DNA from: Streptomyces sp. NBC_01190
GTDB taxonomy: Bacteria; Actinomycetota; Actinomycetes; Streptomycetales; Streptomycetaceae
Assembly: GCF_045039895.1 (NCBI RefSeq)
Contig: NZ_CP108580.1
Coordinates: 6,765,953 to 6,789,952 of the forward strand
DNA length: 24,000 nt
Direction of reading: 5' to 3'
Below are positions 6,383-21,998 of this stretch, piece after piece. Every line of letters begins with the position of its first letter. Within the stretch, counting starts at the first letter, position 1. The notes under the pieces were generated by a model. The model made no database searches. It saw only the letters and a list, made by a program, of their open reading frames with translations, and was not told the DNA's origin. A program made the position numbers and the translations under genes.

Positions 6383-6413
6383 GCACCCCGCTTCGTTGTG
6401 AAGACCTCGCTGA

Positions 6414-7574: not shown

Positions 7575-7578
7575 GTGG

Positions 7579-8763: not shown

Positions 8764-9305
8764 TGTGAGCGGAACCGGCCTTTCTTGATGGGCTGGGCGA
8801 AGAGTGCATCCCAACTGTCCGACCCCTTTTCAGGTCGGCGGGAAGGCGATATGCGTTCGCGGTACATACGCTGGCGAATGATGGTCGCCATCATCTCCGC
8901 TTCGCGTTCATCCGCGGTCGAGTAGCTCGTGCGCCCCGACATGCGCATCACCAGAGTCGGATCCACCCCGAGGGAATGCGCCGTGGAGGCGTCCACTTCC
9001 AGGCTCCCGGGGTGGTCGAGGAACACGTGCATCAGTTCGTGGGCGAGTATGTGCCGTTGATGGTGGACGGACGTCCCCTCCTCGTAGAAGAGGAGGTCGG
9101 CCTGTGGCGTCTCCAGGCGTATGCCGCAGGGGGCGTCGATTGCCCCGAGCGTGTTCAAGGGCTTCAAGAAGATGGGCTTCCCGCGAACTGCGGTTATCGC
9201 TTCACGCAGCTCCCTCGTAGTGAAGCGATACGGCAGGGACAAGCGGTCGACTTTCTGCTCACAGGATGTGCGCAGCAGATTGTCGTCGACCCAAGGCAAA
9301 GACAT
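8760..9305 (-). CDS. ImmA/IrrE-family (M78-like) zinc metallopeptidase, annotated in actinomycetes as a TA-system toxin component
   Basis: HExxH motif in HHQRHILAHELMHVFLDH. The preceding block GKPIFLKPL...LLFYEEGTS and the later YSTADEREAEMMATII are typical of this family. ATG at 9305 is preceded by GAGGGGGG. Confidence 0.8.
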   Translation of the reverse strand: MSLPWVDDNLLRTSCEQKVDRLSLPYRFTTRELREAITAVRGKPIFLKPLNTLGAIDAPCGIRLETPQADLLFYEEGTSVHHQRHILAHELMHVFLDHPGSLEVDASTAHSLGVDPTLVMRMSGRTSYSTADEREAEMMATIIRQRMYRERISPSRRPEKGSDSWDALFAQPIKKGRFRSQ

Positions 9306-9614
9306 GGTAGTTCCCCCCTCAGCCGGAGTTGTTTCAACTGCGAGCGACTGATGAGGAGAGGATGCCAAGAAGGTTGTGGATTTGGTGTTTATAGGAACTG
9401 GTACTTCCGGTTACGCACGGTGTTGCTGCGCCGGGTGTGACGCAAGAGGTGACTGTCCATCGACAACCGCCCTTTGGCTCTCTTGAGGCCGCGGCCCCCG
9501 ATATTTCGGGGGTCGGATCGCGCGCCAAGTCCCCCTCCGTGGGGCCGTCGTCCCTTATGTCTGACTACGGAGGATGACGAACGGGCGATTTTCTGACGGA
9601 AAGTCACGGCATGT

Positions 9615-9630
9615 TGTGACCCACATCACA
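9615..9630. promoter_or_regulatory. Perfect palindrome TGTGA-N6-TCACA directly upstream of the MmyB-like regulator gene
   Basis: TGTGACCCACATCACA at 9615-9630 ends 1 nt before the ATG at 9632. It matches the CRP/FNR-type consensus spacing. It could equally be an operator for one of the local HTH regulators. Confidence 0.4.
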
Positions 9631-9631
9631 G

Positions 9632-10495
9632 ATGGTCGCCCTACGATCTGTCCCTATGGACTCCCGCGAGGGGCGAGGCGATGACAGATTCCGAGGCGAG
9701 TCCCTGACTGAGCTGCTGCGCTCATGGCGCCGGCGCTTGGACCCGCGGGAGGTCCCTGGGCTGGAGTCCACCGGCAGGCGTGGCGATGGTCTGTCCCAAC
9801 GGGACGCCGCCCACTTGGGCGGGGTCAGTGAGCGGTGGTACCGAGCCCTGGAGGCCGGAAAGTCCGCCAACTACTCGGTCGAGTTCCTCGACCGCCTTGC
9901 CATGGGACTGGGGTTAAGCGGTGCCGAGCGGCACGCCCTGTACTTGAGGGCCACCGGAAGGCCGCCAACGCTCCTGGCCGCCCCAGAGCCTGATGCTGCC
10001 GCAGAGATGGATGAGCAGCTCCAGCAGTTCCTGGACACCCAACCTCCCAACCCCGCCTACGTGTCCGACGTGGCGTGGAACATCGTCGGGCGCAATCAGC
10101 CATTTCGCGCATGGTTCCCCTGGGCTGTTCGCGATGGGAATCTCATGCGTTGGATTCTCCTGGATCCGGAAGCACGTGACCGGCTCGTCAATTGGCGCGA
10201 AGACTGGGCCCGTCCGGCCTTGGGGCAAATCCGCTATGCGCTGAGTCAGTATCCCAAGAACGAAGCCCTTCGCCGCTTGGAACGCGATGTCCTTGCGGGA
10301 CCTTGGGACATGCGCGAGATGTGGGGCCGGCGAGAAGTCTACGAACACCCCGAACGCGACGTGCGCAGACTGAGGTTGCCGTACCACGCGGGTCGGGAAG
10401 TCCCGGTCCGAACCATCGATCTGGCCCCCGCGCGCAGCGCACGGCTTCGCGTGGTCGTGTTCATGGAAGGCCGAGGGGGCGCCTCCACTAAGTGA
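9632..10495 (+). CDS. MmyB-like HTH transcriptional regulator (XRE-type HTH plus MmyB-like ligand-binding domain)
   Basis: N-terminal LTELLRSWRRRLDP...GLSQRDAAHLGGVSERWYRALEAGK. The C-terminal domain has PAYVSDVAWNIVGRN, NLMRWILLDPEARD and a terminal RLRVVVF, as in MmyB-family regulators. The start could be the ATG at 9656 (leaderless, after TACGAT at 9642-9647) rather than 9632. Confidence 0.8.
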   Translation: MVALRSVPMDSREGRGDDRFRGESLTELLRSWRRRLDPREVPGLESTGRRGDGLSQRDAAHLGGVSERWYRALEAGKSANYSVEFLDRLAMGLGLSGAERHALYLRATGRPPTLLAAPEPDAAAEMDEQLQQFLDTQPPNPAYVSDVAWNIVGRNQPFRAWFPWAVRDGNLMRWILLDPEARDRLVNWREDWARPALGQIRYALSQYPKNEALRRLERDVLAGPWDMREMWGRREVYEHPERDVRRLRLPYHAGREVPVRTIDLAPARSARLRVVVFMEGRGGASTK

Positions 10496-10535
10496 AGGGC
10501 GGCGCGGGATTCCCGCCCGATGGTTCTGCGGCCGA

Positions 10536-11417: not shown

Positions 11418-11741
11418 ATGCTCACCGCCCAAGGCGGAAGTTCGGCCTGCCCGGACGCCGACCGCCCGCATCGCCTCGCCGCCCAGCTCGCCGACATGAT
11501 CCCCGGCGTGGCCACCCTGCGCGTCAGCCTCACCGGCCCGACGCAGACCTGGCCCCATCCCCACGCCGTGGCCAAGGACAGGGCGGGGCAGCCGGTGGAG
11601 CTGAGTCGGGCGACCGCGAAGATTGCGGCGCGCTGGATCCTGCGGGTCTGGCCGGAGGCCGACTGGACCCGGCCCCATATCTTCGACGTGGCCAGCGCCA
11701 CGCTTACCCGCAGCGACCTGGTCGCGGGCCGGGGCCGCTGA
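11418..11741 (+). CDS. Hypothetical small protein (first gene of the plus-strand mobile-element operon)
   Basis: ATG at 11418 is preceded by ACGGAG. Third-position GC bias is strong throughout. The stop at 11739-11741 lies 1 nt before the next gene's GTG. No family was recognised. Confidence 0.5.
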   Translation: MLTAQGGSSACPDADRPHRLAAQLADMIPGVATLRVSLTGPTQTWPHPHAVAKDRAGQPVELSRATAKIAARWILRVWPEADWTRPHIFDVASATLTRSDLVAGRGR

Positions 11742-11742
11742 C

Positions 11743-12762
11743 GTGTCACGGATACGCCCCGTAAAGCCCGAGACCTGGACGAGCGAGACGCTCGCTGCGG
11801 TCAGCATCCCCGCCATGGTCACCTTCCTGGCCATGACCAACATGGCCGACGACCATGGCCGTCACCGCGACAACGCGGCAATCATTTTCGGGCTGATCTG
11901 GCCGCTGCGCGCCGAGCACAGCGCGGTCCACGTCGAGGAAGACCTCACCCAGCTCGAAGACGTCGGAGCGATCTGCCGGTACACCGGCTGCGACGGCAAG
12001 CGCTACTTCCACTACCCGACCTGGTTCAAGCACCAGAAGATCGACAAGCCCAGCGCGTCGCGGCTCCCCGCCTGCCCGAAGTGCGCTCCCGAGCGGTGCG
12101 GGGTCTGCAAGGGCCCGTGCGCCCAGCGCGCCGACGCCTCCCCGAAGGCTCCCGGAGGATTCGGGGAGGACTCTCCGAACCTTCCCGGAACCCTCGAACC
12201 GCCCGCGCGGCCCGCGCCGACCCCTCCCGCACCCACCCCGGACACCCCTACGCCCGCCCAGGACGCCCCCGGCGCCCCCGCCACCACCACCCAGGGTGCG
12301 GGTGACAAACCCGCAGGTCAGACGCGACTCGCCGAAACCTCTCCGAAGGCTCCCCGAAAGGTCGGGGAGGGCTCGGCGCCTGGATCTAGGATCTTGGATC
12401 CTGGATCTTTCTTCCCTACGGGGCGCGATGCGCCCAACGCGAGCAGCGTCTCGGCGAAGGAGCTGATCGGCGAGTACGTCGCCTCGTGCCGGGAGCGCCC
12501 GCCGGGCGATGTGATCGGCCACCTCGGGGGCGTCACCAAGAAGCTCCTCGCCGAGGGCATCGCGGTGGAGCACGTGCGGGCCGGGCTGCGGCGCTTCGGC
12601 GAGATCCAGGGGCACCCGTCGCGGCTGCCGAGCCTGGTCAACGACGCGATGAACGCACCCGCCGCCGGTTTGGCCGGTCCGGGATTCCGGCCTAACGTGC
12701 CCGCTCACAGGGCGTGGACCAACCCGGTCGACGCCGCCACCGCCTACGCCGAGGAGCTGTGA
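11743..12762 (+). CDS. Putative replication organiser/initiator-like protein (assigned by context)
   Basis: GTG at 11743. There is a structured N-terminal domain (AMVTFLAMTNMADDHGRHRDN...YFHYPTWFKHQKIDKPSASRLPACPKC), then a Pro/Ala-rich linker and a C-terminal helical domain. The stop overlaps the start of the DnaC/IstB-like ATPase (TGATG), the usual position for a helicase-loader partner. Function is inferred from position only. Confidence 0.45.
   Translation: MSRIRPVKPETWTSETLAAVSIPAMVTFLAMTNMADDHGRHRDNAAIIFGLIWPLRAEHSAVHVEEDLTQLEDVGAICRYTGCDGKRYFHYPTWFKHQKIDKPSASRLPACPKCAPERCGVCKGPCAQRADASPKAPGGFGEDSPNLPGTLEPPARPAPTPPAPTPDTPTPAQDAPGAPATTTQGAGDKPAGQTRLAETSPKAPRKVGEGSAPGSRILDPGSFFPTGRDAPNASSVSAKELIGEYVASCRERPPGDVIGHLGGVTKKLLAEGIAVEHVRAGLRRFGEIQGHPSRLPSLVNDAMNAPAAGLAGPGFRPNVPAHRAWTNPVDAATAYAEEL
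12137..12409. repeat. Cluster of inverted and direct repeats inside the replication-organiser gene
   Basis: There is a 10-bp perfect inverted repeat, CCTCCCCGAA (12137-12146) with TTCGGGGAGG (12160-12169). A related 8-bp inverted repeat is CTCCCCGA (12350-12357) with TCGGGGAG (12362-12369). Both sit in imperfect ~40-bp direct repeats encoding SPKAP..GE. They are followed by four tandem heptamers (T/A)GGATC(T/C) at 12381-12408. Confidence 0.6.
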
Positions 12763-13466
12763 TGCGCACCAAGACCCGCGAACCGCAGACCCTCGGCGGA
12801 TCCGGAACCCTGGAGCGGATGGCCCGGATCCTGGCCGCCCGGAACATCGACCCCGCAGCCGCCGCCGTGGCGGACGAGCCGGAGCCGTACTCGCCGCTGG
12901 ACGCGCTACGGGCCTCGATGCCGCCGCGCTACCGGGACGCGGTGGCCGACCACCCGCAGGTCCTGGCCTGGTGCCGGGAGGTCGCCGCGCAGGCGGTCGC
13001 GCCGGGCGTCGGTGCCCGTCGGCAGGTGTGCACCGGCCCCAGCCTGCTGATGGCGGGGGTGGTCGGCGCGGGCAAGACGCACCAGGCGTACGGCGCGGTC
13101 CGCGCGTTGGTCGGGGCGGGGGTCGGGGTGCGGTGGCGGGCGACGACGGCGGCCGACCTGTACGCCGAACTGCGGCCGAGGGCCGGGGTGGACAGCGAGC
13201 GGGAGCTGGCGGCGGTGGCCCGGGTGCCGCTGCTGATCCTGGACGACCTCGGCGCGGCGAAGGCGTCGGAGTGGACCGAGGAGATCACGTACCGGCTGGT
13301 CAACCGCCGGTACAACCACGAGCTTCCGACCCTGATCACCAGCAACCTGCGGATCGGGGACCTGCGGGCCTATGTCGGTGACCGCGTCGCCAGCAGGCTC
13401 ACTCAGATGACCACGCGGGTCGAGTTCGACCTGGTCGACCGTAGACGCACCCGCGCTGCCGCCTGA
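12762..13466 (+). CDS. DnaC/IstB-like AAA+ ATPase (helicase-loader type)
   Basis: Walker A GVVGAGKTH, Walker B LLILDDLG and sensor LITSN are present. ATG at 12762 overlaps the upstream TGA. Confidence 0.8.
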   Translation: MRTKTREPQTLGGSGTLERMARILAARNIDPAAAAVADEPEPYSPLDALRASMPPRYRDAVADHPQVLAWCREVAAQAVAPGVGARRQVCTGPSLLMAGVVGAGKTHQAYGAVRALVGAGVGVRWRATTAADLYAELRPRAGVDSERELAAVARVPLLILDDLGAAKASEWTEEITYRLVNRRYNHELPTLITSNLRIGDLRAYVGDRVASRLTQMTTRVEFDLVDRRRTRAAA

Positions 13467-13582
13467 CCTGCGGTCAGACGGTCCGGCGGGCCCGCCCCCA
13501 GCGCGCCGCCCGCACGAACTTCCCGACCAGGCACCTCCGCCGGCGCCGACTGCGCGCGGAGGGCGATCGGAGCACACCGCGC

Positions 13583-14149
13583 ATGCCCAGCACGACGAAC
13601 ACCCCTGCCCGACACCGCTCGCTGGGGGACCAGACCTGGCAGAACCAGGCGGTCTGCCAGAGCACCGATTACCACCGGGTCGACCCCGCAATTTTCTTCC
13701 CCTACCCCGAGGAGATGGACAAGATCCGCGCAGCCAAGGCCCTGTGCGCTCAGTGCCCCGTCCGCCAGACCTGTCTGGACGCAGCCCTGGAAAACGGCGA
13801 CACCCACGGCATCCGGGGCGGCCTGACCGGGGAGGAACGTGCCCCGATGCACACCCGGCTCCCCGCTCGCCTGGACTACTCCCGCGTCAACGCCGCCGTC
13901 GCCGGACGCGACATCCACCTCACCTCCGCCGAACGCCAGGCCGTCATCCACGCCGCCTACCGCCACGGCGTGCCCGCACACCGCCTGGCGTCGATCCTGA
14001 AGGTCGACGAGGAGACCGCGCAGAAGCGCTACCGCGAGATCCGCCGTGCGCTGCGCCACCGCGACGCGGAGCCCACCACACCCGCCAGCCCGCCGCCGGA
14101 GCAGGGCGGACAGCACCTGGGCCGCGACGACTTCGGGACGGCGGCGTGA
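13583..14149 (+). CDS. WhiB-like (Wbl) Fe-S protein with a C-terminal HTH-like extension
   Basis: Four Cys in Wbl spacing (C...CAQCPVRQTC) and a GIRGG turn (the GIWGG equivalent). The extra ~100 aa tail contains AERQAVIHAAYRHGVPAHRLASILKVDEETAQKRY, which looks like sigma region 4/LuxR. Confidence 0.75.
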   Translation: MPSTTNTPARHRSLGDQTWQNQAVCQSTDYHRVDPAIFFPYPEEMDKIRAAKALCAQCPVRQTCLDAALENGDTHGIRGGLTGEERAPMHTRLPARLDYSRVNAAVAGRDIHLTSAERQAVIHAAYRHGVPAHRLASILKVDEETAQKRYREIRRALRHRDAEPTTPASPPPEQGGQHLGRDDFGTAA

Positions 14150-15249
14150 GCACCGCCAGCGTGCCGGAGACGGTGCTCGTCACCGGCTGGGACCGCCTGG
14201 CCGTGATCGTCCTGGGCGGCGCCGGGTGCGCCCTGTCGGCCAGCGCCCTGATGCAGATGGCCATCGCCATCCACATCCGCCCCGCCCTGTGCTGGCTCTT
14301 CCCGCTGGTGGTCGACGGGTTCATCGCCTACGGCATCCGGGCGCTGCTGGTCCTGCGCACCGCCCCGCTGCGCGCCCGCCTGTACGTCTGGACGCTGGTG
14401 GGCACCGCGACCGGGGTCAGCGTCTGGGCCAATGCCCTGCACGCGGTCCGGCTCAACGAGACCGCCCCGGCCGGCGGACTGCAGCTCGGCGACACGGTGG
14501 TCGCCTACCTGTCCACGGTCGCCCCGCTCGCCCTGGCCGGAGCGGTCCACCTGTACATCCTCATCGCCCGGGGCCCGGACAACCACGCCGCCCGCACCGA
14601 CCGGACTGGCCGTCACGGTCAGGTCGGTCACCCCGGTCAGGCCGACCGATCCGGTCAGTCTGACCCCGCCAGGGGCATCGCGGTCACCGCGGCTGACCGG
14701 GCCGGTCAGAGGTCACCGCACGCCGGTCAGTCCGGTGCCGGTCAGCCGGTCACCGCGCCGACCGACCCGCCCTCGGCGGCCGGGAACCCGCCCACCCTGG
14801 TCACCCGGTCACTGACCGGGGCCGGTGACCCGGCGGGCGGCACCGGCTCGGTCAGCGGTCACCACGACACCCGCGTTCGACGGACGCAGGCCGCTGACCT
14901 GGGCGGTCAGCCGGACAGCGGCCCGGCGGTCAGTGACCGACCGGCCGCCACCGAGCCGGTCACCACCGGCCCGGTCAGCCACCCGCCGGTCACTGACCGG
15001 CCGGTTACTCCTGCGCCGGTCGGTGACCGCGAGCCCCGCAGAGCCGGTGACCGGCGCCCTGACCTGGACACCGAGGAGCTGCTGGAGATCGCCCGGTCAG
15101 CGGTCAGGGCCCAGGACAAGTTGACCCGGCAGGTGGTTGCCCAGGCCATCCGGGGTCAGCGGATCCCGCTGTCCAGCGACACGCTGACCGCCCTGATGGC
15201 CCAGCTCCGCGAACAGCGCGACGAGCCGGTCACCACCTCCCGCGACTGA
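14146..15249 (+). CDS. DUF2637-like membrane protein with a low-complexity middle region and a C-terminal helical domain
   Basis: GTG at 14146 overlaps the WhiB-like stop (GTGA). N-terminal TM helices (VIVLGGAGCALSASALMQMAIA, LFPLVVDGFIAYGIRALLVL, YVWTLVGTATGVSVWANALHAV) are as in DUF2637 proteins of actinobacterial plasmids and ICEs. The ORF-track start at 13744 is an Arg-rich over-extension. Confidence 0.65.
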   Translation: MSTASVPETVLVTGWDRLAVIVLGGAGCALSASALMQMAIAIHIRPALCWLFPLVVDGFIAYGIRALLVLRTAPLRARLYVWTLVGTATGVSVWANALHAVRLNETAPAGGLQLGDTVVAYLSTVAPLALAGAVHLYILIARGPDNHAARTDRTGRHGQVGHPGQADRSGQSDPARGIAVTAADRAGQRSPHAGQSGAGQPVTAPTDPPSAAGNPPTLVTRSLTGAGDPAGGTGSVSGHHDTRVRRTQAADLGGQPDSGPAVSDRPAATEPVTTGPVSHPPVTDRPVTPAPVGDREPRRAGDRRPDLDTEELLEIARSAVRAQDKLTRQVVAQAIRGQRIPLSSDTLTALMAQLREQRDEPVTTSRD

Positions 15250-15297
15250 CCGCACCGCGCGGGGGCGGGTGACCGGGCCGGACAGCCCGGCCGGTCA
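14617..15297. repeat. Dense array of GGTCA/TGACC motifs, often as CCGGTCA(G/C)
   Basis: Hand count gives 24 GGTCA and 14 TGACC in ~680 bp. This includes two identical 15-bp palindromes, CCGGTCACTGACCGG (14805-14819 and 14986-15000). The motif falls in all three codon phases of the host CDS. Confidence 0.8.
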
Positions 15298-15306
15298 CCC
15301 GCCCCC
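15261..15306 (+). terminator. Very stable GC-rich hairpin after the DUF2637 gene
   Basis: GGGGGCGGGTGACCGG (15261-15276) is perfectly complementary to CCGGTCACCCGCCCCC (15291-15306), and an inner CCGG/CCGG pairing is possible. It begins 12 nt after the stop at 15249. There is no U-tract, which is common in Streptomyces. It contains the GGTCA/TGACC motif. Confidence 0.6.
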
Positions 15307-15352
15307 GAAGTGCCACCTTCCGACTTCCTCCCACCGACTGGAGAGCACGACC

Positions 15353-15577
15353 ATGCGCACCAACCCTGCCGCCCCCGCCGAGGTGGAGACCTGGCTGGCC
15401 GTTCTGCACGAGCGCGGGCACCTCTACCGCGCCGAAACCGGACCCGACCGCACCTGGATCGTGCAGCGAGGCCGTCACAGCCGCCCGTGGACCCTGCACC
15501 ACCCGGTCCTGGCGATGGACTGGATCGAGGACGTCCTGCGCGACGTCCACCAGAGCGAAGCGGAGTCGGATCGGTGA
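15353..15577 (+). CDS. Hypothetical small protein (74 aa)
   Basis: ATG at 15353 lies 8 nt after GGAGAG. Codon bias is good (MRTNPAAPAEVETWLAVLHERGHLYRAE...). No family was recognised. Confidence 0.5.
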   Translation: MRTNPAAPAEVETWLAVLHERGHLYRAETGPDRTWIVQRGRHSRPWTLHHPVLAMDWIEDVLRDVHQSEAESDR

Positions 15578-15644
15578 CCGCCGACGACCCGGTGGCCGCC
15601 ACCCCTGACCAGCAGCGACAGGTCAACTCGGCTCCTGGCGGGTC

Positions 15645-15716
<72 letters not shown>

Positions 15717-15747
15717 AAGCAAGCCGCGAGGGCGTCACCCGGACGGG

Positions 15748-17514
15748 CTACCCGGGAGTCCGCTTGCTGTCACCCGCATGGTGCTGGCGGTGGCACTCGG
15801 TGTGTACCAGGCGGAGGTTGGTCCGTTGGTCCGTGCCGCCGTCTCTCCGGTAAACGAAGTGGTGCTTGTTGAGCATCTTCTTCGACGCCGCGAACCAGTT
15901 GATCCACTCGCGTGGGCTGTCCGGTTCGTATTCGGCTCCGTCGATCAGCGCCAGACCGCATAGAGGGCACAGCCCTTTCTGTACGGCTGCCAGGTACAAG
16001 CTGGTCCTGTCCATCGGCGGCGGCGTTTTCTGGCGGCGACGGCCATGCCAGTAACCGGTCAGGGCCGGATCGTCTGGCGACGAGGCCCCTTTGACCATGG
16101 TGTGTCTGGCATAACGGGTCCAGGCGAATTTAGGGAGGTAGGCGCCGGTATGCCGGACACCGAACACCCAGTAGTCCTGCCTGGACTTGTTGAACCTGCC
16201 GAAATAGTGGTTCTTGATCCACAGTCCCGAACGATTGTCGTGACCGCGTTTCGCCCACTTGTAGAGAAGCGTGAACATGTAGTGGTCCATCGAGCGAAAT
16301 GCCTGATAGGACGCCACACCCCGGTAGTACGCCGTCCAGCCCCGAACGATCGGGGTGAACTTCGCCACCACGGCCATGGAGTTCGCACCCCGCAAGCGGA
16401 GCATCTCCTCCTTCAGCCGCTTCCGGAGCTTGCTGCATGCTTCCCTGCTCGGCCTGATGACCAGCATTCCACCGTGCCGCTGCACGGTGAATCCCAGGAA
16501 GTCGAACCCTTCGTCGAGGTGCACGACACGGGTCTTCGCCTCGTTGAAGCGAAGACCCCTGGGAGCCAGCCAGGTCACCAGTTTCTCCTTGACCCGGTAC
16601 GCCTCTTCCCTGCTGTGGCACAGGGCCACGAAGTCGTCGGCATAGCGGATCAGCACGGGCGCCCCGATGGCGGTATGGCCTTCACGGCCTCTCCGTCCTT
16701 CGAAGCGGAATCCCGCGGCCTGTTCCATCCCGTGCAGCGCGATGTTCAGCAGCAGCGGACTGATCACGCCGCCCTGAGGAGTTCCCTCCCCGGTCGGAGC
16801 GAAACGCCCGCGTTCCATCACGCCGGCCCGCAGCCACGCGCCGATCAGGTCCCTGGCGGGGAACTGTCCGATCATGGCGGTCAGGTGGTCGTGACTGATG
16901 CGGTCGAACGCCCCTTCCAGGTCCGCGTCCAGCGCCCATCGGCGCTTGGCCAGCGGTCCCCGGGCCGTGACCCGGATCGCCGCTATCGCGTCCTGGCAGG
17001 AGCGGCCGGGCCGAAATCCATAGGACCTCGGCTCGAACCGCGCTTCCCACTCGGGCTCCAGGGCGTTCTTCACGCGTGCCTGGAGCACCCGGTCACGGAT
17101 GACCGGGATGCCGAGCGGGCGCTGTTTCCCGTTCGCTTTCGGGATGTACACCCGCTTGACCGGCCTGGCCGTCCACGGCACCGGCGGCCGATGGATCTCG
17201 GTCGCCAGCCTGGCCCTGCCCGCAGGGGTCAGGACCCGTTCGCCGTCGATGCCAGCGGTCTTGCGGCCACTGCTCTGCTGTGTCACCCGCTTCACACTGA
17301 CCAGCGTGTTGCTGCGGCTTTTCAGCATGAGCTTCTGCAAATTGCGGACGCTTTTCAGGTCCCCGTCCTTCGACGCCTTGAAGATCCGCTGCCTCAGCCG
17401 CCGTACGTTGTCCTCGCACCTGGCCCAGTCGATGCTGTGCCAGTCGAGTTTCCCGTCCTCCGGTCCGTTCACCTCGGGCGCGCGGGCAGTCGCTTCTGCC
17501 GCTGTGATGCTCAT
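15748..17514 (-). CDS. Group II intron reverse transcriptase/maturase with a C-terminal HNH endonuclease domain
   Basis: RT motifs include RPLGIPVIRDRVLQ, the FDRISH region and YADDFVALC (YADD). A maturase X domain (RGWTAYYR) is present. The C-terminal part carries CPLCG...HHFVYRRDGG...LRLVHTECHRQHH (HNH). ATG at 17514. Confidence 0.95.
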   Translation of the reverse strand: MSITAAEATARAPEVNGPEDGKLDWHSIDWARCEDNVRRLRQRIFKASKDGDLKSVRNLQKLMLKSRSNTLVSVKRVTQQSSGRKTAGIDGERVLTPAGRARLATEIHRPPVPWTARPVKRVYIPKANGKQRPLGIPVIRDRVLQARVKNALEPEWEARFEPRSYGFRPGRSCQDAIAAIRVTARGPLAKRRWALDADLEGAFDRISHDHLTAMIGQFPARDLIGAWLRAGVMERGRFAPTGEGTPQGGVISPLLLNIALHGMEQAAGFRFEGRRGREGHTAIGAPVLIRYADDFVALCHSREEAYRVKEKLVTWLAPRGLRFNEAKTRVVHLDEGFDFLGFTVQRHGGMLVIRPSREACSKLRKRLKEEMLRLRGANSMAVVAKFTPIVRGWTAYYRGVASYQAFRSMDHYMFTLLYKWAKRGHDNRSGLWIKNHYFGRFNKSRQDYWVFGVRHTGAYLPKFAWTRYARHTMVKGASSPDDPALTGYWHGRRRQKTPPPMDRTSLYLAAVQKGLCPLCGLALIDGAEYEPDSPREWINWFAASKKMLNKHHFVYRRDGGTDQRTNLRLVHTECHRQHHAGDSKRTPG

Positions 17515-18124
17515 GCACGCCTCCGGTGTCTAACTTGTCCTTCGGTTCTGGTGTCTTTGCGTTGGTGCTTCAAGGGCTCACCTGGTCCACGTGGGCTCCC
17601 TTTCGGGCCGGGCCACCAGGGCCCGTATCCGGCGGGTTATGCCGCGTGGCGCGTGGAGACGGCCACCTCGCGGTTTTCCCCTGGCCTTTCGGCCTGCCGG
17701 CATTGGCTTCTTGGACCATCCTGTTCCTGCCGGGGAGTTGGGCTCCCCTTACGGTCGGCTTACCGGGTTTCCCCGGACCCCGACAGGGTTTCCGTGTTCC
17801 GCACGCTGAAGATGCGGCTGGGGTGGGCGCCCCCTCTGTCCCGTGGCCGACGGTGTCCCACAACCGATGTTGCTTGCACCGGAAGCCGTCTGCGCCTCTC
17901 AACGCGGGCCAATCCCTGCCGACAACACGCCATCTACAGGGTTCACATAACGAGACATTGACCGGGGGTTCACACGAGTTCGCCCGTCCAGCCTTCCCCT
18001 CGCCTGTGGCTCCTCGACGGCCGAGAAACCCTTGGGCTTGAACGCTCAGCTCCACACCCTGCCGTTGCCAGCAACGCACGTGAGCGCGGGGACGGAATCG
18101 GGACACTAATCCGGAGGAATTGTC

Positions 18125-18781
18125 ATGCCTGAACCTCTCCACAAGACGGACCTCACTTCAGAACGTGCGGCCTCACGTCGCACAGCAAGTTGTCGCGGTC
18201 GACGGTCCTACGGCCCGTCGATCGCACTTGCCCCCGCCCAGGGGGGCGGGGGAAGTCCGGCTGGTCCCCGCGCGAGGGCGCACGGGGACCAGCCGGAGGT
18301 CCGGCACCAGGGGGCGCCGGTCGCGGGGGGACAAGCAGCCGATCGCGTGCCGCGCGAGCAGCCCAGCCCCAGCGCGCCCGCGTTCCCCGACCGCGCTCCG
18401 CGCCGTCGCTCCCGCAACCCGAGCCAGCGCACCCACAAGCTGACTACGCGCCTGTCCCTCGCCGAGAAGACCGAGATCAGCGCCGCCGCAGCGAAGCGCG
18501 CCGTCACCGTCGCGCGCTTTCTCGCCGCCGCCGCCCTGACCGCCGCCCGCGGTTCGCTGCCCGTGCAGAGCAACGAGCAGCTCGACGCCGCCATCGACGA
18601 GCTGGCCGCCCTGCGCACCGCCGTCTCCCGCGTCGGCAACAACATCAACCAGATCGCCTACGTCTACAACTCCGGCGGCCAGTCCCGCCCCGGCGAACTC
18701 GACCACGCACTCGGCGTGCTGACCCGGATCCTGGCCCGCGTCGATGACACGGCCGACACTCTCGCGCGCGGGCGGCTCTGA
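18125..18781 (+). CDS. mobC: MobC-family relaxosome accessory protein
   Basis: The C-terminal part RLSLAEKTEISAAAAKRAVTVARFLAAAAL...LRTAVSRVGNNINQIAYVYN matches the MobC (RHH plus GNNLNQIA) pattern. ATG at 18125 lies 7 nt after GGAGG (18113-18117). However, the first ~25 codons have poor GC3 and a GC hairpin lies at 18231-18252, so an in-frame GTG at 18347 is a plausible alternative start. Confidence 0.7.
   Translation: MPEPLHKTDLTSERAASRRTASCRGRRSYGPSIALAPAQGGGGSPAGPRARAHGDQPEVRHQGAPVAGGQAADRVPREQPSPSAPAFPDRAPRRRSRNPSQRTHKLTTRLSLAEKTEISAAAAKRAVTVARFLAAAALTAARGSLPVQSNEQLDAAIDELAALRTAVSRVGNNINQIAYVYNSGGQSRPGELDHALGVLTRILARVDDTADTLARGRL
18231..18252. other. 9-bp all-GC hairpin (CCCCCGCCC-AGGG-GGGCGGGGG) in the mobC 5' region
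   Basis: Arms at 18231-18239 and 18244-18252 are perfectly complementary with a 4-nt loop. It lies between the intron insertion point and the conserved part of mobC. Confidence 0.5.
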
Positions 18782-20535
18782 TGGTCCCCAAGATCCGGCG
18801 CGGCTCGCGCACCCACGGCGTGCTCGTCTACCTCTTCGGCCCCGGCAAGCGCGACGAGCACACCGACCCCCACCTCGTCGGCTCCTGGGACGGCTTCGCT
18901 CCCGACCCGGGCCGCGACACCAGCCCCGACCCCGACCCGAAGGCCACCCTCGCCCGCCTGGCCGCAGCCCTGGACCTGCGCGTCACGCAGGCCGGCGCCA
19001 GCGCACCAGCCCAGCACGTGTGGCACTGCTCGGTGCGCACCGACCCCGGCGACCGCATCCTGAGCGACGCCGAATGGAACACCGTCGCCCGCCGCCTCGT
19101 CCAGGCCATCGGCCTGGCACCCGACGGCGACCCGGACGGCTGCCGCTGGGTCGCTGTCCGCCACGCCGAGGACCACATCCACATCGTGGCCACCATGGTC
19201 CGGGGCGACCTTCGCCGCCCCCGCATGAACTACGACTTCAAAAAGGCCCAGGCCGAATGCCGCCGCATCGAGAAGGAGATGGGCCTGCGCCGGCTCAAGC
19301 CCGGTGACGGCACCGCAGCCAAAAACCCCACCAGCGCAGAGCGGTTCAAAGCCGAACGCACCGGCCGCACCGAAACTCCCCGCGAGACACTGCGCGAAGC
19401 CGTCCGCCAGGCCCTCGCCGGAGCCGCCACCGAGGAGGAGTTCTTCACCCGCCTCCGCGACAAGGGGGTGCGCGTTAAGCTGCGCGACGCACCCTCAGGA
19501 GACGTCATCGGCTACTCGGTCGCGCTGCCCGGCGACCGCAACCGCGACGGCGAACCGGTCTGGTTCCCCGGATCCACCCTCGCCCCCGACCTGTCCCTGC
19601 CCAAGATCCGCCGCCGCCTGGCCGACGCACCCGGCGACGATCCGGCAACACCGGGGGCCGGCACCGGCCGAACCGTTTGGTCGCCGCCCGCCCGGGGACG
19701 GCGCACCGCCACCGGGATCGCCGAACGCGCCGCCGTCATCCTGGACAGCGACGACGACGGTGCCGCCGCCCAACTCACCGGCATGGGCGAACTGCTCGAC
19801 GCCGTCGCCCAGACCTCCCCGGCCGCGACCCGCGCCGAGCTGGCCGCCGCAGCCCGCTCCTTCGAACGCGCCACCCGCAGCCACACCCGCGCGCAGCAAG
19901 CCGAAACCCGCGCCCTGCGCTCCGCCGCCCGCGGCATCATCCACGCCGGCGGGGCGCTCGGCCGGGGCGAGGACGGCGGCACCACCGCGATGCTGCTGTC
20001 CACTCTGGTCCTGGCCGCCATCGCCGCAGCCCGCTGGCACTCCGCCCGCGGCCACGCCCAGCAAGCCGAAGCCTCCCGCCAGACCGTCCAGCACCTACGC
20101 GCCGCCTACCGACAGGCCGCCGCCGCACCCATGCAGGCACTGCACGCCCAAGGCCGCGCCCTGCCCGAGGCCGAACGCCGCAGCCACGAGAGCACCATCC
20201 GGAAGGCACTGCCGCACCACCTCACCCACGCCGATACCGATACCCAGCACGACGCGCTGGCCGCCACCCTCGCCGAGGCAGAACAGGCAGGCCACGACCC
20301 CAAGACTCTTCTGCAGCGAGCCATCGACATGCGCGAACTCGACTCAGCTGAGGATGTGAACGACGTCCTGGTGTGGCGACTGCGCCGCCTCGCCGACCTC
20401 CCCGCCCACCCGGGCGACACCGCCCCATCCCGGAAGACCGGCACCGCCCGCACCGCGCCACCGGCTCCCCGGACCGGCGTCCACAGCGCGCCGCCCGCCG
20501 CACGGGACCCCCGCAACCGTCCGCCCCGCCGCTGA
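18781..20535 (+). CDS. Relaxase/mobilisation nuclease (MobA/VirD2-type) with a long Ala/Arg-rich C-terminal region
   Basis: N-terminal relaxase domain: GVLVYLFGPGK, HVWHCSVR and the histidine triad region VRHAEDHIHIVATMV. ATG at 18781 overlaps the mobC stop (TGATG). Confidence 0.9.
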   Translation: MVPKIRRGSRTHGVLVYLFGPGKRDEHTDPHLVGSWDGFAPDPGRDTSPDPDPKATLARLAAALDLRVTQAGASAPAQHVWHCSVRTDPGDRILSDAEWNTVARRLVQAIGLAPDGDPDGCRWVAVRHAEDHIHIVATMVRGDLRRPRMNYDFKKAQAECRRIEKEMGLRRLKPGDGTAAKNPTSAERFKAERTGRTETPRETLREAVRQALAGAATEEEFFTRLRDKGVRVKLRDAPSGDVIGYSVALPGDRNRDGEPVWFPGSTLAPDLSLPKIRRRLADAPGDDPATPGAGTGRTVWSPPARGRRTATGIAERAAVILDSDDDGAAAQLTGMGELLDAVAQTSPAATRAELAAAARSFERATRSHTRAQQAETRALRSAARGIIHAGGALGRGEDGGTTAMLLSTLVLAAIAAARWHSARGHAQQAEASRQTVQHLRAAYRQAAAAPMQALHAQGRALPEAERRSHESTIRKALPHHLTHADTDTQHDALAATLAEAEQAGHDPKTLLQRAIDMRELDSAEDVNDVLVWRLRRLADLPAHPGDTAPSRKTGTARTAPPAPRTGVHSAPPAARDPRNRPPRR

Positions 20536-20610: not shown

Positions 20611-21045
20611 ATGGATGAACAGACAGGCCTGGAGATGGAGATGACGCTCGTGCCCAGAACGACCGACCACCCCATAGAGGCACCCACCGCTCCGCCTGCC
20701 GCCCCCGTAGACAGCGACCCGCTGCTTCAACTGCGGTACGCGCCCCAGCCTCCCAGTGGTCCCCACGCCTTCCACTACATCCGCCACCCCCAAGAACTGG
20801 CCCTGCGCGGGATTCCAGTGATGTGCACGGCCTGCCGAGCCCGCCGGGACTGGCTCCTGATCAACCAGGGCCGCAACGTCTGGATCCACTGCCGCTGCAA
20901 CAACCAGTGGCACGAACCCGAGATCACCCGCGCCGCCTTCCAGGCCCTGACCCGCCTCCCGGACACCACCACATACGCCAGCGTGGCCGAGGGCGTAGCC
21001 GCCATGGGTTTCGACGGGAGCTTCGCCGGCATCTACCTGGAATAG
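20611..21045 (+). CDS. Hypothetical protein with a Cys/His cluster (possible zinc ribbon)
   Basis: Codon bias is consistent. The cluster is CTACRARRDW...WIHCRCNNQWHE. The start is uncertain (ATG at 20611, 20635 or 20641). A terminator hairpin follows. Confidence 0.5.
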   Translation: MDEQTGLEMEMTLVPRTTDHPIEAPTAPPAAPVDSDPLLQLRYAPQPPSGPHAFHYIRHPQELALRGIPVMCTACRARRDWLLINQGRNVWIHCRCNNQWHEPEITRAAFQALTRLPDTTTYASVAEGVAAMGFDGSFAGIYLE

Positions 21046-21071: not shown

Positions 21072-21100
21072 GGAGCGCCACCGGGTTCCGGTGGCGCTCC
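21072..21100 (+). terminator. Perfect 13-bp hairpin
   Basis: GGAGCGCCACCGG-GTT-CCGGTGGCGCTCC (21072-21100) lies 27 nt after the stop at 21045 and is followed by the T-containing GTCGTTGTG. Confidence 0.65.
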
Positions 21101-21998
21101 GTCGTTGTGCGGTGGTCAGCCGCGGTTGCTGTGTTTGGGAAGCTGACCCCGGTAGTCGCAGCCCGGACAGGTGTCCTCGCCTTCGATGTGGCCTCCGTAC
21201 CAGCCGTGAACAGCGGCGTGGAGGACCGCGCGCCCGTGGGAGAGGCCCGGCGGGACCGAACAGACTCACCTGCGCCCGGGTCCGTCGCGGGTTCAGGAAC
21301 CTGCGGGCGAAGACCGGCACATCAGCCGGTGCACCGAAACCCACCCGCCGGGCCCCGGACGACCGCCCGGCTCGAAGAACCGGCGGCCCACCACCCGCTG
21401 TGAGGTCCGACGCGTCCTCGCCACCGGCGAGGCATACAGCCGACCCGCTCGCCACAAGACAGGCAGCAACCCGCGTCGCGGCGGTCGATCTTCCACCCAA
21501 ACTCCCCAACACGGACCTGACGATGTTAAATAGCGGCACGGTGAGTGCAAGAAGCAGAAGCGGTCCGACTGGGGCATTCCAAAGTGGATCGTCCTGTTGG
21601 CGACACCGTAGGGCTGGCGCACCAGCTCCTCACCATGGAAGGCGGAATGCTCTGCGGGCGCCTGGACGTGTCGATCAACACTGATCCACGAGATGCCCGG
21701 GTCGCTGCGGCGGTGACAGTGACGGAACTTGCGGCGCGACTTCCACGACACCCGACGTCAGGGTGAGGTGACCGGGGCCCCAGCAGCAGCGGCAGGCACT
21801 GCCCGCGCGCCTCGTAAGCCTCGGCAGCTCCTCGGGAAGGAAGTCCGCCTGCAGGAAGACCGGCAACTCTCCCGCTGTGCCGACGGCCAGTACCAGCGGC
21901 CTGCTCCGCGAGGCTGGCTGCTGAAGCTAGTCAGTTGGTGCTGTCCCAACAGGACAGTCTGACCCCCGCGGACGAGCCCGACAGCAGCGTTCGTTCGC

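What the first reader, a model, noticed from the sequence alone, without database searches (positions are those of the whole stretch)
14617..15306. Very dense GGTCA/TGACC motif array embedded in a coding region and its terminator: candidate cis-acting site (clt/oriT/centromere-like)
My hand count gives 24 GGTCA and 14 TGACC in ~680 bp. A rough composition-based guess is that only one or two would be expected. Most copies extend to CCGGTCA(G/C). There are two identical 15-bp palindromes, CCGGTCACTGACCGG, ~180 bp apart. The 16-bp-arm terminator hairpin at 15261-15306 is built from the same motif. The motif occurs in all three codon phases of the DUF2637 gene: ggt-cag (G-Q) at 14617, 14635 and 14704; g-gtc-acc (V-T) at 14682, 14748 and 14799; cgg-tca (R-S) at 14711 and 14807. 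The repetition is therefore selected at the DNA level, and the low-complexity peptide (GQ/PVT/RS) looks like a by-product. Clustered short repeats inside or at the 3' end of transfer genes are how Streptomyces plasmid clt loci are recognised by the TraB translocase. From memory, the 8-bp TRS of pSVH1 is GACCCGGA, which resembles GACCGG here. Alternatives are parS-like centromere repeats, iterons, or a binding array for the WhiB-HTH or DUF2637 C-terminal domain.
Basis: partly seen in the sequence, partly recalled or inferred. Interest (0 to 1): 0.75.

Follow-up and report, generated by a model that had tools for sequence, protein, structure and literature searches.

The report
Short-motif DNA array inside mobilisation gene
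About 38 copies of the 5-7 bp word CGGTCA are written over the 3' two-thirds of a membrane-protein gene just upstream of the relaxase genes of a widespread Streptomyces mobilisable element. They are conserved at the DNA level rather than the protein level, so this is most likely a protein-binding cis site for DNA transfer whose binding partner is still unknown.

Summary
There are 24 GGTCA and 14 TGACC in 14617-15297, against about 2.6 expected from dinucleotide shuffles. Two 15-bp palindromes and a 22-nt-arm hairpin are built from the same word.

The peptide does not explain the enrichment. Codon-preserving nulls give 13.1±2.3 (synonymous permutation) and 6.7±2.1 (codon-usage resampling), against 36 copies observed in the gene.

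Seven orthologous elements at 60-92% protein identity keep 27-38 copies. Synonymous third bases inside motifs are retained far more often than elsewhere (A/T-ending codons 67% vs 35%). Motif bases in the linker are more conserved than non-motif bases. Copy number is held while individual positions turn over.

More distant relatives of the same gene carry different words at the same place (CGGACA, CGGACC), or no array at all.

The gene encodes a DUF2637 four-helix membrane anchor, a disordered linker and a family-specific three-helix C-terminal domain. It always sits just upstream of MobC and a relaxase. No TraB/FtsK, coupling-protein or ParAB gene lies nearby.

Best reading: a lineage-specific, multi-copy protein-binding platform belonging to the mobilisation module. 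The binder is probably the gene's own C-terminal domain, tethering oriT-proximal DNA to the membrane. It works like clt or sps but is a member of neither. The binder and the function are inferred, not shown.

The parts
14146..15249 (+). DUF2637 gene (367 aa). Residues 1-145 form a four-helix membrane anchor. Residues ~146-300 form a low-complexity linker rich in GQ, PVT and DR. Residues ~300-367 form a conserved three-helix C-terminal domain. The start codon overlaps the whiB-like stop (GTGA).
   Evidence: Pfam PF10935 at 2.2e-08. Translation. 100% identical protein from Streptomyces sp. NBC_01190 and more than 1,500 homologues. C-terminal domain: AF2 pLDDT 72, three helices. That domain is found only at the C-termini of this family.
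14617..15297 (.). Motif array: 38 copies of GGTCA/TGACC, consensus cCGGTCA(G/C). Both orientations (24 + / 14 -), all three codon phases, irregular spacing (median 15 bp).
14805..14819 (.). 15-bp palindrome CCGGTCACTGACCGG (head-to-head half-sites with a 1-nt spacer)
   Evidence: The same arrangement recurs 2-4 times per array in all eight clade-A loci.
14986..15000 (.). Second copy of the 15-bp palindrome CCGGTCACTGACCGG
15061..15249 (+). Part of the array that overlies the structured C-terminal domain: 7 copies, including CGG-TCA-GCG-GTC-AGG, which is built with the rare codons TCA and AGG. The stop codon lies inside cTGACCg.
   Evidence: TCA is kept in 7 of 8 orthologues; the R(AGG)/K(AAA)/S(AGC) variants keep the leading A of the word; the stop-codon context TGACC is seen in about 24 of 33 loci across clades.
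15260..15307 (.). Perfect-stem hairpin immediately after the stop codon, with arms containing GTGACC...GGTCAC. It is probably a U-tract-less terminator separating the upstream operon from the mob operon, and possibly a protein-recognised or oriT inverted repeat.
   Evidence: a hairpin at this position is present in most of the 33 related loci examined, but several (L009, L012, L016, L031/L032, L040, L041) show no strong stem there. GTGACC/GGTCAC is also found in the arms of clades that have no array.
13583..14149 (+). WhiB-like protein with a ~100-aa C-terminal extension (weak sigma-70 region 4 / HTH similarity). It is translationally coupled to the DUF2637 gene and is a candidate binder.
   Evidence: Pfam Whib at 2.1e-20. 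Sub-threshold HTH hits. Present in many but not all array-bearing loci.
12714..13466 (+). IstB/DnaC-like AAA+ ATPase of the module
11623..12762 (+). Conserved 379-aa protein of unknown function, first gene of the upstream operon
   Evidence: no Pfam match
15353..15577 (+). 74-aa conserved ORF, first gene of the mob operon
   Evidence: 56-91% identity in L001-L012. Annotated as a hypothetical protein in NZ_CP104318.
15642..18183 (-). Group II intron (GTGCG...AC; RT-maturase-HNH ORF at 15748-17514). It is inserted in antisense orientation about 70 nt into mobC. It is not part of the array.
   Evidence: Rfam RF00029. Pfam RVT_1/GIIM/HNH. Exact junction from comparison with intron-free L001, L003, L006 and L007. 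Intron ends read.
18184..18781 (+). MobC/NikA-like ribbon-helix-helix relaxosome accessory protein. Its 5' end is displaced by the intron.
   Evidence: Pfam NikA-like 6.9e-08 and MobC 1.2e-05. Annotated MobC in L001.
18781..20535 (+). Relaxase (MobA/VirD2-like nuclease domain)
   Evidence: Pfam PF03432 at 5e-10. Syntenic with the DUF2637 gene in essentially all 42 related loci.
20611..21045 (+). Conserved 144-aa protein of unknown function downstream of the relaxase

Best explanation
The array is a cis-acting, multi-copy protein-binding site belonging to the mobilisation module of an integrative mobilisable element of Streptomycetaceae. It is written over the coding sequence for the disordered linker and the C-terminal domain of a membrane-anchored DUF2637 protein, and it ends in the hairpin just upstream of the small-ORF/mobC/relaxase operon.

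Proposed mechanism (inferred, not shown):
1. An element-encoded DNA-binding protein coats the roughly 35 half-sites and palindromes. The most likely candidate is the cytoplasmic three-helix C-terminal domain of the DUF2637 protein itself.
2. Because that protein is anchored in the membrane by four helices and a long flexible linker, binding tethers the oriT-proximal DNA to the membrane, where a helper element's transfer apparatus can take it.
3. Placing the sites inside the binder's own gene keeps protein and site linked. This allows lineage-specific word changes (CGGTCA, CGGACA, CGGACC).

Shown here: the array exists, it is constrained at the DNA level, the word is lineage-specific, and its position within the mob module is fixed.
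For: (1) The enrichment far exceeds every null. The gene holds 36 copies, against 13.1±2.3 for synonymous permutation (maximum 23 in 5,000) and 6.7±2.1 for codon-usage resampling. The same holds in all 8 clade-A loci, with z = 6-9 and 10-17 respectively.

(2) Rare codons are recruited. GGT makes up 58% of Gly codons in the array, against 8.9% in 11 reference genes. TCA and AGG are used inside the structured C-terminal domain. Amino-acid variants R(AGG)/K(AAA)/S(AGC) keep the word intact.

(3) Synonymous third bases inside motifs are retained more than elsewhere. In orthologues at ~63% amino-acid identity, retention is 67% vs 35% for A/T-ending codons (p = 6e-6) and 90% vs 72% for G/C-ending codons (p = 2e-6). 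Linker motif bases are 78-85% identical, against 60-66% for non-motif bases.

(4) Positions turn over while copy number is kept. Each ~63%-identity orthologue has 24-32 in-gene copies (27-36 including the hairpin flank). Of these, 7-17 lie where the window has other bases. There are 67 distinct aligned sites, 20 of them unique to one locus.

(5) Copies extend into non-coding DNA. The hairpin arms carry the word, and L006 and L007 have extra copies there.

(6) Other clades of the same gene carry other words at the same position, also in several phases and on both strands: CGGACA in L008 and L010; CGGACC in L013, L018, L028 and L043.

(7) The DUF2637-(small ORF)-MobC-relaxase synteny holds in about 40 loci.

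(8) The protein architecture fits a tether: four membrane helices, a linker, and a C-terminal three-helix domain. By the positive-inside rule the C-terminal part is cytoplasmic (sequence; fold). The best, though non-significant, fold matches are HTH and winged-helix DNA binders.

(9) There is precedent for binding sites inside the binder's own gene: SpdA2/sps of pIJ101 (PMC4170104), and clt overlapping the 3' end of traA in pWTY27 (PMC3583192).
Against: No binding is demonstrated.
- The C-terminal domain has no Pfam, PDB-sequence or significant fold match. Its helix 2 to helix 3 connection is longer than in a classical HTH.
- Covariation of the array with the DUF2637 protein is trivial, because the two are physically the same locus.
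- Arrays are absent in some clades that keep the C-terminal domain and the hairpin (clade D and the L024 group). An array is therefore not essential to the module.
- In L031 and L032 the 'array' is a true 24/72-bp tandem repeat in one codon phase that encodes a Gly-Pro-rich peptide. It is nearly explained by uniform codon use. Slippage therefore contributes at least in some lineages.
- The orthologue comparisons are not phylogenetically independent, so the p-values are overstated.
Confidence: 0.4

Rival explanations
1. The array is a relaxosome or oriT-associated array. The hairpin would be the oriT inverted repeat, and the repeated word would be bound by the relaxase or an accessory factor (MobC/NikA-like RHH, the small ORF product or hyp144). 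This would load or stimulate nicking, or define the leading region.
For: The array lies immediately upstream of the mob operon and is always syntenic with MobC and the relaxase. A strong inverted repeat sits at the 3' end. A hairpin at this position, and the TGACC stop-codon context, occur in most clades, including clades without arrays. RHH proteins typically read short repeated sub-sites (general knowledge).
Against: MobC type does not covary with the array. L004 and L005 carry a 32%-identical MobC but the same CGGTCA array. L013 and L030 share a MobC type but differ in array and hairpin word. No conserved nic-like sequence was found next to the hairpin or elsewhere in the non-coding DNA; the only conserved 10-mers are MobC coding sequence. 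Thirty-eight sites over 700 bp is far more than any described oriT accessory site set.
Confidence: 0.2
2. The array is a by-product with no DNA-level function. A slippage-prone, low-complexity linker expanded from a founder unit that happened to use GGT, GTC and ACT codons. The word, its codons and its palindromes are then inherited rather than selected.
For: Short tandem patches exist in the window: periods of 9, 15 and 30 bp at 14616-14644 and 14910-15005. L031 and L032 are clear 24/72-bp tandem arrays in one phase. About half the copies are positionally conserved among orthologues. The linker length varies by indels.
Against: Most copies are not in tandem units. Spacing is irregular and the copies use both strands and three phases. 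Copies lie in the structured C-terminal domain and in non-coding DNA. Synonymous and motif bases are preferentially conserved. Copy number is maintained through positional turnover. Clade D linkers have normal codon usage and no array.
Confidence: 0.15
3. The array is a clt mimic. It would be read by the C-terminal winged helix of a TraB/FtsK-type translocase from a co-resident conjugative plasmid or AICE, so that the element can be moved as double-stranded DNA.
For: Known clt loci are clusters of 5-9 bp repeats plus inverted repeats, at or overlapping the 3' end of the transfer gene, with plasmid-specific words. Examples: pWTY27 has 4x TGACACC plus CCCGCCC; pJV1 has 9x 9-bp repeats; pSVH1 has 8-bp repeats (PMC3583192, PMC4447253). 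The module has no translocase of its own. The hairpin arm GGTCACCCGCCC contains CCCGCCC.
Against: No TraB is linked, so the defining partner is missing. The element has its own relaxase and MobC, which implies single-strand transfer. clt repeats are direct repeats numbering 3-9, not ~38 copies in both orientations. The CCCGCCC resemblance is low-information in 69% G+C DNA.
Confidence: 0.1
4. The array acts as a single-strand structure element. The mixture of direct and inverted copies would make the transferred strand or the mRNA fold into a dense set of hairpins. These could serve as a priming or sso-like site, a single-strand promoter, or an mRNA stability or attenuation element.
For: The segment 14600-15250 folded as ssDNA gives -216 kcal/mol against -174±6 for shuffles (z = -7.4). 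The adjacent 651 nt give z = +0.45.
Against: The excess folding follows automatically from having the word in both orientations. The recurrent palindromes have a 1-nt spacer, which suits a dimeric duplex binder and not a hairpin loop. No conserved base-pairing architecture is evident, given positional turnover. Several clades have strongly one-strand-biased arrays: L008 10/2, L013 4/18, L043 25/2.
Confidence: 0.07
5. The array consists of iterons or a centromere for replication or partition of the excised element, read by the hyp379/IstB-like proteins or a Par system.
For: An IstB/DnaC-like AAA+ ATPase and a conserved unknown protein lie upstream. Streptomyces plasmid origins can use 7-8 bp repeats plus inverted repeats (pWTY27, PMC3583192).
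Against: Arrays occur in loci lacking hyp379 and IstB homologues (L008, L013, L014, L018, L033, L015, L042, L043). They are absent from loci that have them (clade D and the L024 group). No ParA or ParB is present in the module.
Confidence: 0.05

Closest known systems
clt loci of Streptomyces conjugative plasmids (pSVH1 TRS, pJV1, pWTY27, pIJ101), read by the TraB/TraA FtsK-like translocase
   Same: Clusters of short (5-9 bp) plasmid-specific repeats plus inverted repeats. They lie at or overlapping the 3' end of the gene for a membrane-anchored transfer protein whose C-terminal domain reads DNA. They act in cis for transfer.
   Different: There is no FtsK/SpoIIIE motor in the protein or the module. 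The module is relaxase-based. There are ~38 copies over 700 bp, against 3-9 copies over 50-175 bp. Copies run in both orientations. The array is almost entirely overprinted on coding sequence. The word is different.
SpdA2-sps of pIJ101 and related plasmids (PMC4170104)
   Same: A palindromic binding site lies inside the coding region of the protein that binds it. The site is conserved at the DNA level. Its phenotype is mild or accessory.
   Different: sps is a single 12-bp palindrome (CGTCACGTGACG) present in 1-3 copies and identical across plasmids. SpdA is a small soluble protein. No SpdA2 homologue exists here. Here the word is lineage-specific and about 10-fold more numerous.
oriT accessory-protein sites (MobC/NikA RHH proteins; StbA-stbDR of R388)
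   Same: Repeats next to the mob genes and an inverted repeat, in a module with a MobC/NikA-like protein and a MobA/VirD2-type relaxase.
   Different: MobC type does not track the array. No nic-like conserved sequence was found. The number and extent of sites are much larger, and they lie inside a gene.
Repeat-array plasmid centromeres (omega heptads of pSM19035, parC of R1, tubC)
   Same: Many short sub-sites in direct and inverted orientation, thought to be coated cooperatively by a small DNA-binding domain.
   Different: Those arrays are contiguous, regularly spaced and non-coding, and they partner with a ParA/ParM/TubZ NTPase. Here the spacing is irregular, the array is coding, and no partition NTPase is present.
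FtsK KOPS / SpoIIIE SRS
   Same: A short oriented word read by a C-terminal helical domain of a membrane-anchored protein. A moderate strand bias is seen here (24:14).
   Different: KOPS and SRS are genome-wide 8-mers with chromosome-scale polarity, not a local 700-bp cluster. There is no motor domain here.

Membership tests
[quoted passage not shown] | Recognised by a TraB/TraA FtsK-SpoIIIE-type translocase encoded by the same element, usually adjacent | tested here: not met
   No FtsK_SpoIIIE domain was found in any window ORF scanned, nor in the flanks of L008, L013, L022, L028, L031 and L036. As a positive control, pIJ101 Tra gives an FtsK_SpoIIIE match.
[quoted passage not shown] | Cluster of short direct repeats with inverted repeats at or near the 3' end of the transfer gene | tested here: met
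   38 copies plus palindromes plus the terminal hairpin, at the 3' end of the DUF2637 gene. However, both orientations are used and the copy number is far higher than in described clt loci.
[quoted passage not shown] | Required in cis for transfer | not testable with these tools
   Requires mating assays.
oriT of a MOB relaxase | Adjacent to the relaxase and accessory genes, with an inverted repeat | tested here: met
   The hairpin at 15260-15307 lies 45 bp upstream of the small-ORF/mobC/relaxase operon.
oriT of a MOB relaxase | Conserved nic sequence a few bases from the inverted repeat, cleaved by the relaxase | tested here: inconclusive
   Sequences flanking the hairpin are poorly conserved among orthologues. 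A k-mer search of the interval in 39 loci found only MobC coding sequence. Cleavage itself is not testable here.
SpdA/sps system | sps palindrome CGTCACGTGACG | tested here: not met
   The word here is CCGGTCA-S-TGACCGG. sps is found in pIJ101 at 8140 and 8173, and its sequence is given in PMC4170104.
SpdA/sps system | SpdA-family DNA-binding protein encoded at the site | tested here: not met
   BLASTP of pIJ101 SpdA2 against all ten module proteins gives a best E-value of 0.23.
ParABS-type or repeat-array centromere | Partner partition NTPase and centromere-binding protein in the same module | tested here: not met
   Pfam and NCBIfam scans of the module found an IstB/DnaC-like AAA+ ATPase only, with no ParA/ParB/ParM/TubZ.
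Replication iterons | Co-occurrence with the cognate initiator gene | tested here: not met
   Arrays are present in loci without hyp379/IstB homologues and absent from loci that have them.
DUF2637 (PF10935) protein family | Match to the Pfam model above the gathering score | tested here: met
   34.6 bits against a cut-off of 22.8. pIJ101 SpdB is not a member.

The most novel reading that the evidence does not exclude
This would be a self-encoded 'cis-anchor'. A motor-less membrane protein has the 3' coding sequence of its own gene overprinted with about 35 copies of the binding word for its own C-terminal domain. The protein therefore locks the DNA that encodes it, and the adjacent oriT, to the membrane. 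It would act as a functional analogue of TraB-clt or of a coupling protein, for relaxase-based mobilisable elements in mycelial actinomycetes. Protein-word pairs would diversify by lineage (CGGTCA, CGGACA, CGGACC) in the manner of a specificity or incompatibility code.
Probability: 0.2. Interest if true: 0.8.

Novelty: new variant of a known kind. Interest (0 to 1): 0.66.

Why it matters
Relaxase-based mobilisable elements in Streptomyces are poorly understood, because Streptomyces conjugation is dominated by the TraB double-strand system. This module is very common: more than 1,500 homologous proteins, on many Streptomyces, Kitasatospora and Actinacidiphila chromosomes and on giant plasmids. 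Yet DUF2637 is mentioned in only two papers of the searched library; I read neither, so whether any function has been assigned to it is unchecked.

If the array is a binding platform, three things follow.
1. It gives DUF2637 proteins a testable function as a membrane tether or adaptor for DNA transfer.
2. It provides a clear example of a dense regulatory or structural DNA code overprinted on a coding region in all three frames.
3. It offers a natural system of lineage-specific protein-DNA recognition that could set mobilisation specificity.

There is also a practical point. Annotators and codon-optimisers should know that this 'low-complexity linker' carries DNA-level information.

Tried and rejected
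1. SpdB2 or Spd identity of DUF2637. pIJ101 SpdB and SpdA give no DUF2637 match. Rejected.
2. SpdA2 homologue in the module. None found.
4. Search for a conserved nic site between the DUF2637 stop codon and the relaxase in 39 loci. Only MobC coding sequence is conserved. A resemblance of the post-hairpin GAAGTGCCACC to MOBQ nic cores is not conserved in orthologues. Dropped.
5. MobC as the specificity determinant. Contradicted by L004/L005 and by L013 versus L030.
6. WhiB-HTH as an obligatory partner. It is absent by tblastn from the array-bearing loci L008, L013, L014, L018, L033 and L015, and no Whib domain was found upstream in L013 or L008.
7. Helical phasing of sites. None found.
8. The same array or palindrome in other contexts. 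The plasmid database gave only the two orthologues. IMG/VR gave 83 mostly single chance hits and no array with more than 11 copies per 700 bp.
9. Verification of the pSVH1 TRS sequence. It is not in the readable papers.
10. Canonical promoter and terminator scans. Nothing found in 13400-15700.
Full report
**1. The observation**

The window is 68.6% G+C and matches the chromosome of Streptomyces sp. NBC_01190 (a 100% identical protein). Between 14617 and 15297 there are 24 GGTCA and 14 TGACC. That is 38 of the window's 112 copies. The other 23.2 kb predict about 2.4 for a stretch of this size. Dinucleotide-preserving shuffles give 1.5±1.2 and 1.1±1.0.

Thirty-seven of the 38 copies are followed by G or C. 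Thirty extend to CGGTCA and 18 to CCGGTCA. The consensus is cCGGTCA(G/C).

The two 15-bp palindromes (14805 and 14986), two more head-to-head pairs (14653 and 14928), and the hairpin (arms 15260-15281 and 15286-15307, -57.5 kcal/mol, z = -4.8, no U tract) are all as described. Overall the + strand copies fall in phases 0/1/2 as 10/4/10 and the - strand copies as 1/3/10.

**2. Context**

The gene is 14146-15249 (367 aa). It encodes a DUF2637 four-helix membrane domain, a ~155-residue low-complexity linker (GQ, PVT and DR peptides), and a conserved ~60-residue C-terminal domain.

Upstream on the same strand lie three genes:
- a conserved 379-aa unknown protein;
- an IstB/DnaC-like AAA+ ATPase;
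- a WhiB-like protein with a C-terminal extension, whose stop codon overlaps the DUF2637 start.

Downstream, after the hairpin, come four more:
- a 74-aa ORF;
- a MobC/NikA-like ribbon-helix-helix protein;
- a MobA/VirD2-type relaxase;
- a 144-aa unknown protein.

In this copy a group II intron (15642-18183, minus strand, GTGCG...AC, RT-maturase-HNH) sits in antisense orientation about 70 nt into mobC. Intron-free versions of the module exist on S. angustmyceticus plasmid p1, where the genes are annotated. They also exist in 42 loci from Streptomyces, Kitasatospora, Actinacidiphila and Streptacidiphilus genomes.

The order DUF2637-(small ORF)-MobC-relaxase is kept in essentially all of them. 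One relative has a large serine recombinase upstream. No TraB/FtsK, coupling protein, T4SS or ParAB gene was found in the window or in the flanks examined; the neighbours are cargo-like genes. The module therefore looks like the core of an integrative mobilisable element that depends on a helper for the transfer channel. That last step is inference.

**3. Is the repetition a peptide effect?**

No. Holding the protein fixed, permuting synonymous codons within the gene gives 13.1±2.3 copies (maximum 23 in 5,000). Resampling codons from the window's own usage gives 6.7±2.1. The observed number is 36. All eight clade-A loci exceed both nulls, with z = 6-9 and 10-17.

The word is built with rare codons:
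- GGT is 8.9% of Gly codons in 11 reference genes but 58% in the array. All nine G-Q and G-H dipeptides of the linker use GGT.
- Inside the structured C-terminal domain, the peptide R-S-A-V-R is encoded CGG-TCA-GCG-GTC-AGG, which makes two words with two rare codons.
- TCA is kept in 7 of 8 orthologues. Where the last residue varies (R, K or S) the codons are AGG, AAA or AGC, all of which keep the A of GGTCA.

Copies also lie in non-coding DNA. The hairpin arms carry the word, and L006 and L007 have additional copies there.

**4. Comparative evidence for DNA-level constraint**

I used codon alignments of five module genes between the window and four orthologues at ~63% protein identity. Among codons encoding the same amino acid, those whose third base lies inside a motif are identical in 67% of cases for A/T-ending codons, against 35% elsewhere (Fisher p = 6e-6). 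For G/C-ending codons the figures are 90% against 72% (p = 2e-6).

Within the fast-evolving linker, motif bases are 78-85% identical and non-motif bases 60-66%.

Copy number is maintained: 27-38 per locus when the 80 bp after the stop codon are included, and 25-36 within the gene. Positions, however, turn over. There are 67 distinct aligned sites across eight loci, 20 of them unique to one locus. Each distant orthologue has 7-17 copies where the window has other bases.

The four orthologues are not independent samples, so these p-values are optimistic. Even so, the direction is the same in every comparison.

**5. Do relatives have their own arrays?**

Yes, and this is the most informative result. 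An unbiased k-mer enrichment of the linker/3' region against each locus's flanks gives the following:
- CGGTCA in the window and L001-L007;
- CGGACA in L008, L010 and (weakly) L016;
- CGGACC/CGGTCC in L013, L014, L018, L028, L031, L032, L042 and L043;
- GGGGACC in L015;
- weak CGGTCA in L022 and L036;
- no array in a large Kitasatospora clade (L017, L020, L029-L030, L034-L039) or in the short-linker group L011, L024 and L025.

Several non-A arrays are also multi-phase and exceed the codon-preserving nulls. For example, L028 has 44 copies against 25±3. Its peptide GPVR is encoded GGTCCGGTCCGG, which places two adjacent 5-mers in different frames.

L031 and L032 are a caveat. Their 61-69 copies are a true 24/72-bp tandem repeat in one phase, encoding a Gly-Pro-rich peptide. 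They are nearly reproduced by permuting their own uniform codons. Slippage clearly contributes in some lineages.

In most of the loci examined a strong hairpin follows the stop codon; several (L009, L012, L016, L031/L032, L040, L041) show none there. GTGACC...GGTCAC is present in its arms in clade A, in the array-less Kitasatospora clade, and in L018 and L033. The stop codon itself lies in TGACC in about 24 of 33 loci. This suggests an ancestral 3'-end site from which arrays expanded. That is inference.

**6. Who reads it?**

This is not resolved.
- **MobC is unlikely to set specificity.** L004 and L005 have a MobC only 32% identical to the window's but the same array. L013 and L030 share a MobC type but differ in word.
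- **hyp379 and IstB do not track arrays**.
- **WhiB-HTH** is present in many array-bearing loci but not all of them.
- **The DUF2637 C-terminal domain is always present.** It is predicted to be cytoplasmic by the positive-inside rule applied to the sequence. It folds as three helices (pLDDT 72, core ~80-86). In all 37 family matches it lies at the C-terminal end of the protein.
- **That domain has no Pfam, PDB or significant fold match**. The non-significant top fold hits are mostly HTH or winged-helix DNA binders.

The domain's linkage to the array is absolute because both are the same gene. That fits the logic of SpdA2/sps and of clt overlapping tra genes, but it also makes covariation uninformative.

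**7. Other properties**

Spacing shows no helical phasing. The commonest arrangements are the head-to-head palindrome with a 1-nt spacer, and direct copies 7-9, 15 or 24 bp apart. A 1-nt spacer suits a dimer on duplex DNA rather than a hairpin loop.

As single-stranded DNA the array folds far better than shuffles (z = -7.4, against +0.45 for the neighbouring 651 nt). This is expected from mixed orientations, but it keeps a single-strand structural role open.

**8. Comparison with known systems**

The array works most like a Streptomyces clt. Both have short element-specific repeats plus inverted repeats at the 3' end of a membrane-anchored transfer gene (PMC3583192, PMC4447253). It also resembles SpdA2/sps, where the sites lie inside the binder's own gene (PMC4170104).

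It is not a member of either:
- there is no FtsK-type translocase;
- the word is different and there is no SpdA homologue;
- there are about ten times more sites, and they run in both orientations.

It fits oriT by position and by the inverted repeat, but no nic sequence could be identified. Centromere and iteron readings lack their partner proteins. DUF2637 is mentioned in only two papers of the searched library; I read neither, so I cannot say what they report.

**9. Verdict**

This is a real, DNA-level-constrained, lineage-specific short-motif array that belongs to the mobilisation module of a widespread Streptomycetaceae element. The most likely function is a multi-copy protein-binding platform for transfer. 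The gene's own C-terminal domain is the favoured but unproven reader. Membrane tethering is the proposed mechanism.

Approximate confidence:
- the array is a functional DNA element: ~0.75;
- the specific binder and mechanism: ~0.3-0.4.

It is a new variant of known cis-acting repeat arrays, of moderate to high interest, and it is directly testable by EMSA and synonymous recoding.

Noticed in passing
window 15642-18183 (- strand): A complete group II intron (GTGCG...AC, RT/maturase/HNH ORF at 15748-17514, domain V at 15642-15718). It is inserted antisense about 70 nt into mobC, so it cannot be spliced from the mob mRNA. An ATG at 18125, inside the intron end, could give a chimeric MobC. This copy of the element may be impaired for mobilisation.
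   Followed up: yes
window 15244-15251; stop-codon regions of L001-L036: The DUF2637 stop codon lies within cTGACCg in about 24 of 33 loci. This holds across clades with different C-terminal residues, and in clades without an array. It suggests a conserved 3'-end site.
   Followed up: partly
L013 ~8058-8085, L014, L018, L033, L017, L030, L035 (downstream of the first hairpin): A second conserved hairpin, GACTTCTGCCGA...TCGGCAGAAGTC, follows the first in the Kitasatospora-type clades. It explains the GCAGAA k-mer enrichment there. It could be the terminator or an oriT repeat of those elements.
   Followed up: no
L031 7777-8470, L032: 558-562-aa DUF2637 variants whose linker is a 24/72-bp tandem repeat (GGTCC in one phase). 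It encodes about 300 residues of GGP/SGP/APAGP repeats.
   Followed up: partly
window 13464-13476: A tail-to-tail pair TGACCTGCGGTCA overlaps the IstB-like stop codon, 107 bp upstream of whiB. It is conserved only in the closest relative, L003. The IstB-like stop also lies in TGACC in 6 of 8 clade-A loci.
   Followed up: partly
window 7154-10500 vs L003, L005, L007: Nucleotide homology with other species extends leftwards through the DUF6545 gene, the MmyB-like regulator and the Xre-type HTH gene. It ends on the right at about 21,200-21,230. The element, or a conserved neighbourhood, is therefore larger than the mob module. No integrase lies in the window.
   Followed up: partly
L013 3064-4989: A large serine recombinase (Resolvase/Recombinase/Zn-ribbon domains) lies upstream of the module in a Kitasatospora relative. 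This indicates an integrative element.
   Followed up: no
L122 8560-8620 (IMG/VR contig); L086: One viral contig carries two copies, 33 bp apart, of TGACCGGTCACTGACCGGTCAGCG, which contains the same 15-bp palindrome. Another has five dispersed copies over 7.9 kb. The neighbouring ORFs have no Pfam match.
   Followed up: partly
L042 ~7900-8000: A run of N (assembly gap) falls inside the array of this relative. Such arrays are evidently hard to assemble.
   Followed up: no
L129 (S. alboflavus pMDJK44.2) 6025-7086: A 36%-identical DUF2637 protein with the same C-terminal domain sits in a different context (MOBF plasmid; DUF4326/DUF6195 neighbours; no adjacent MobC or relaxase). It has only a weak enrichment of CCGTCC (8 copies vs 0.75 expected).
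   Followed up: partly
window 21091-21684: An ORF at the right edge of the conserved region has a short match to a putative transposase family (NF041680). It may mark the element boundary.
   Followed up: no
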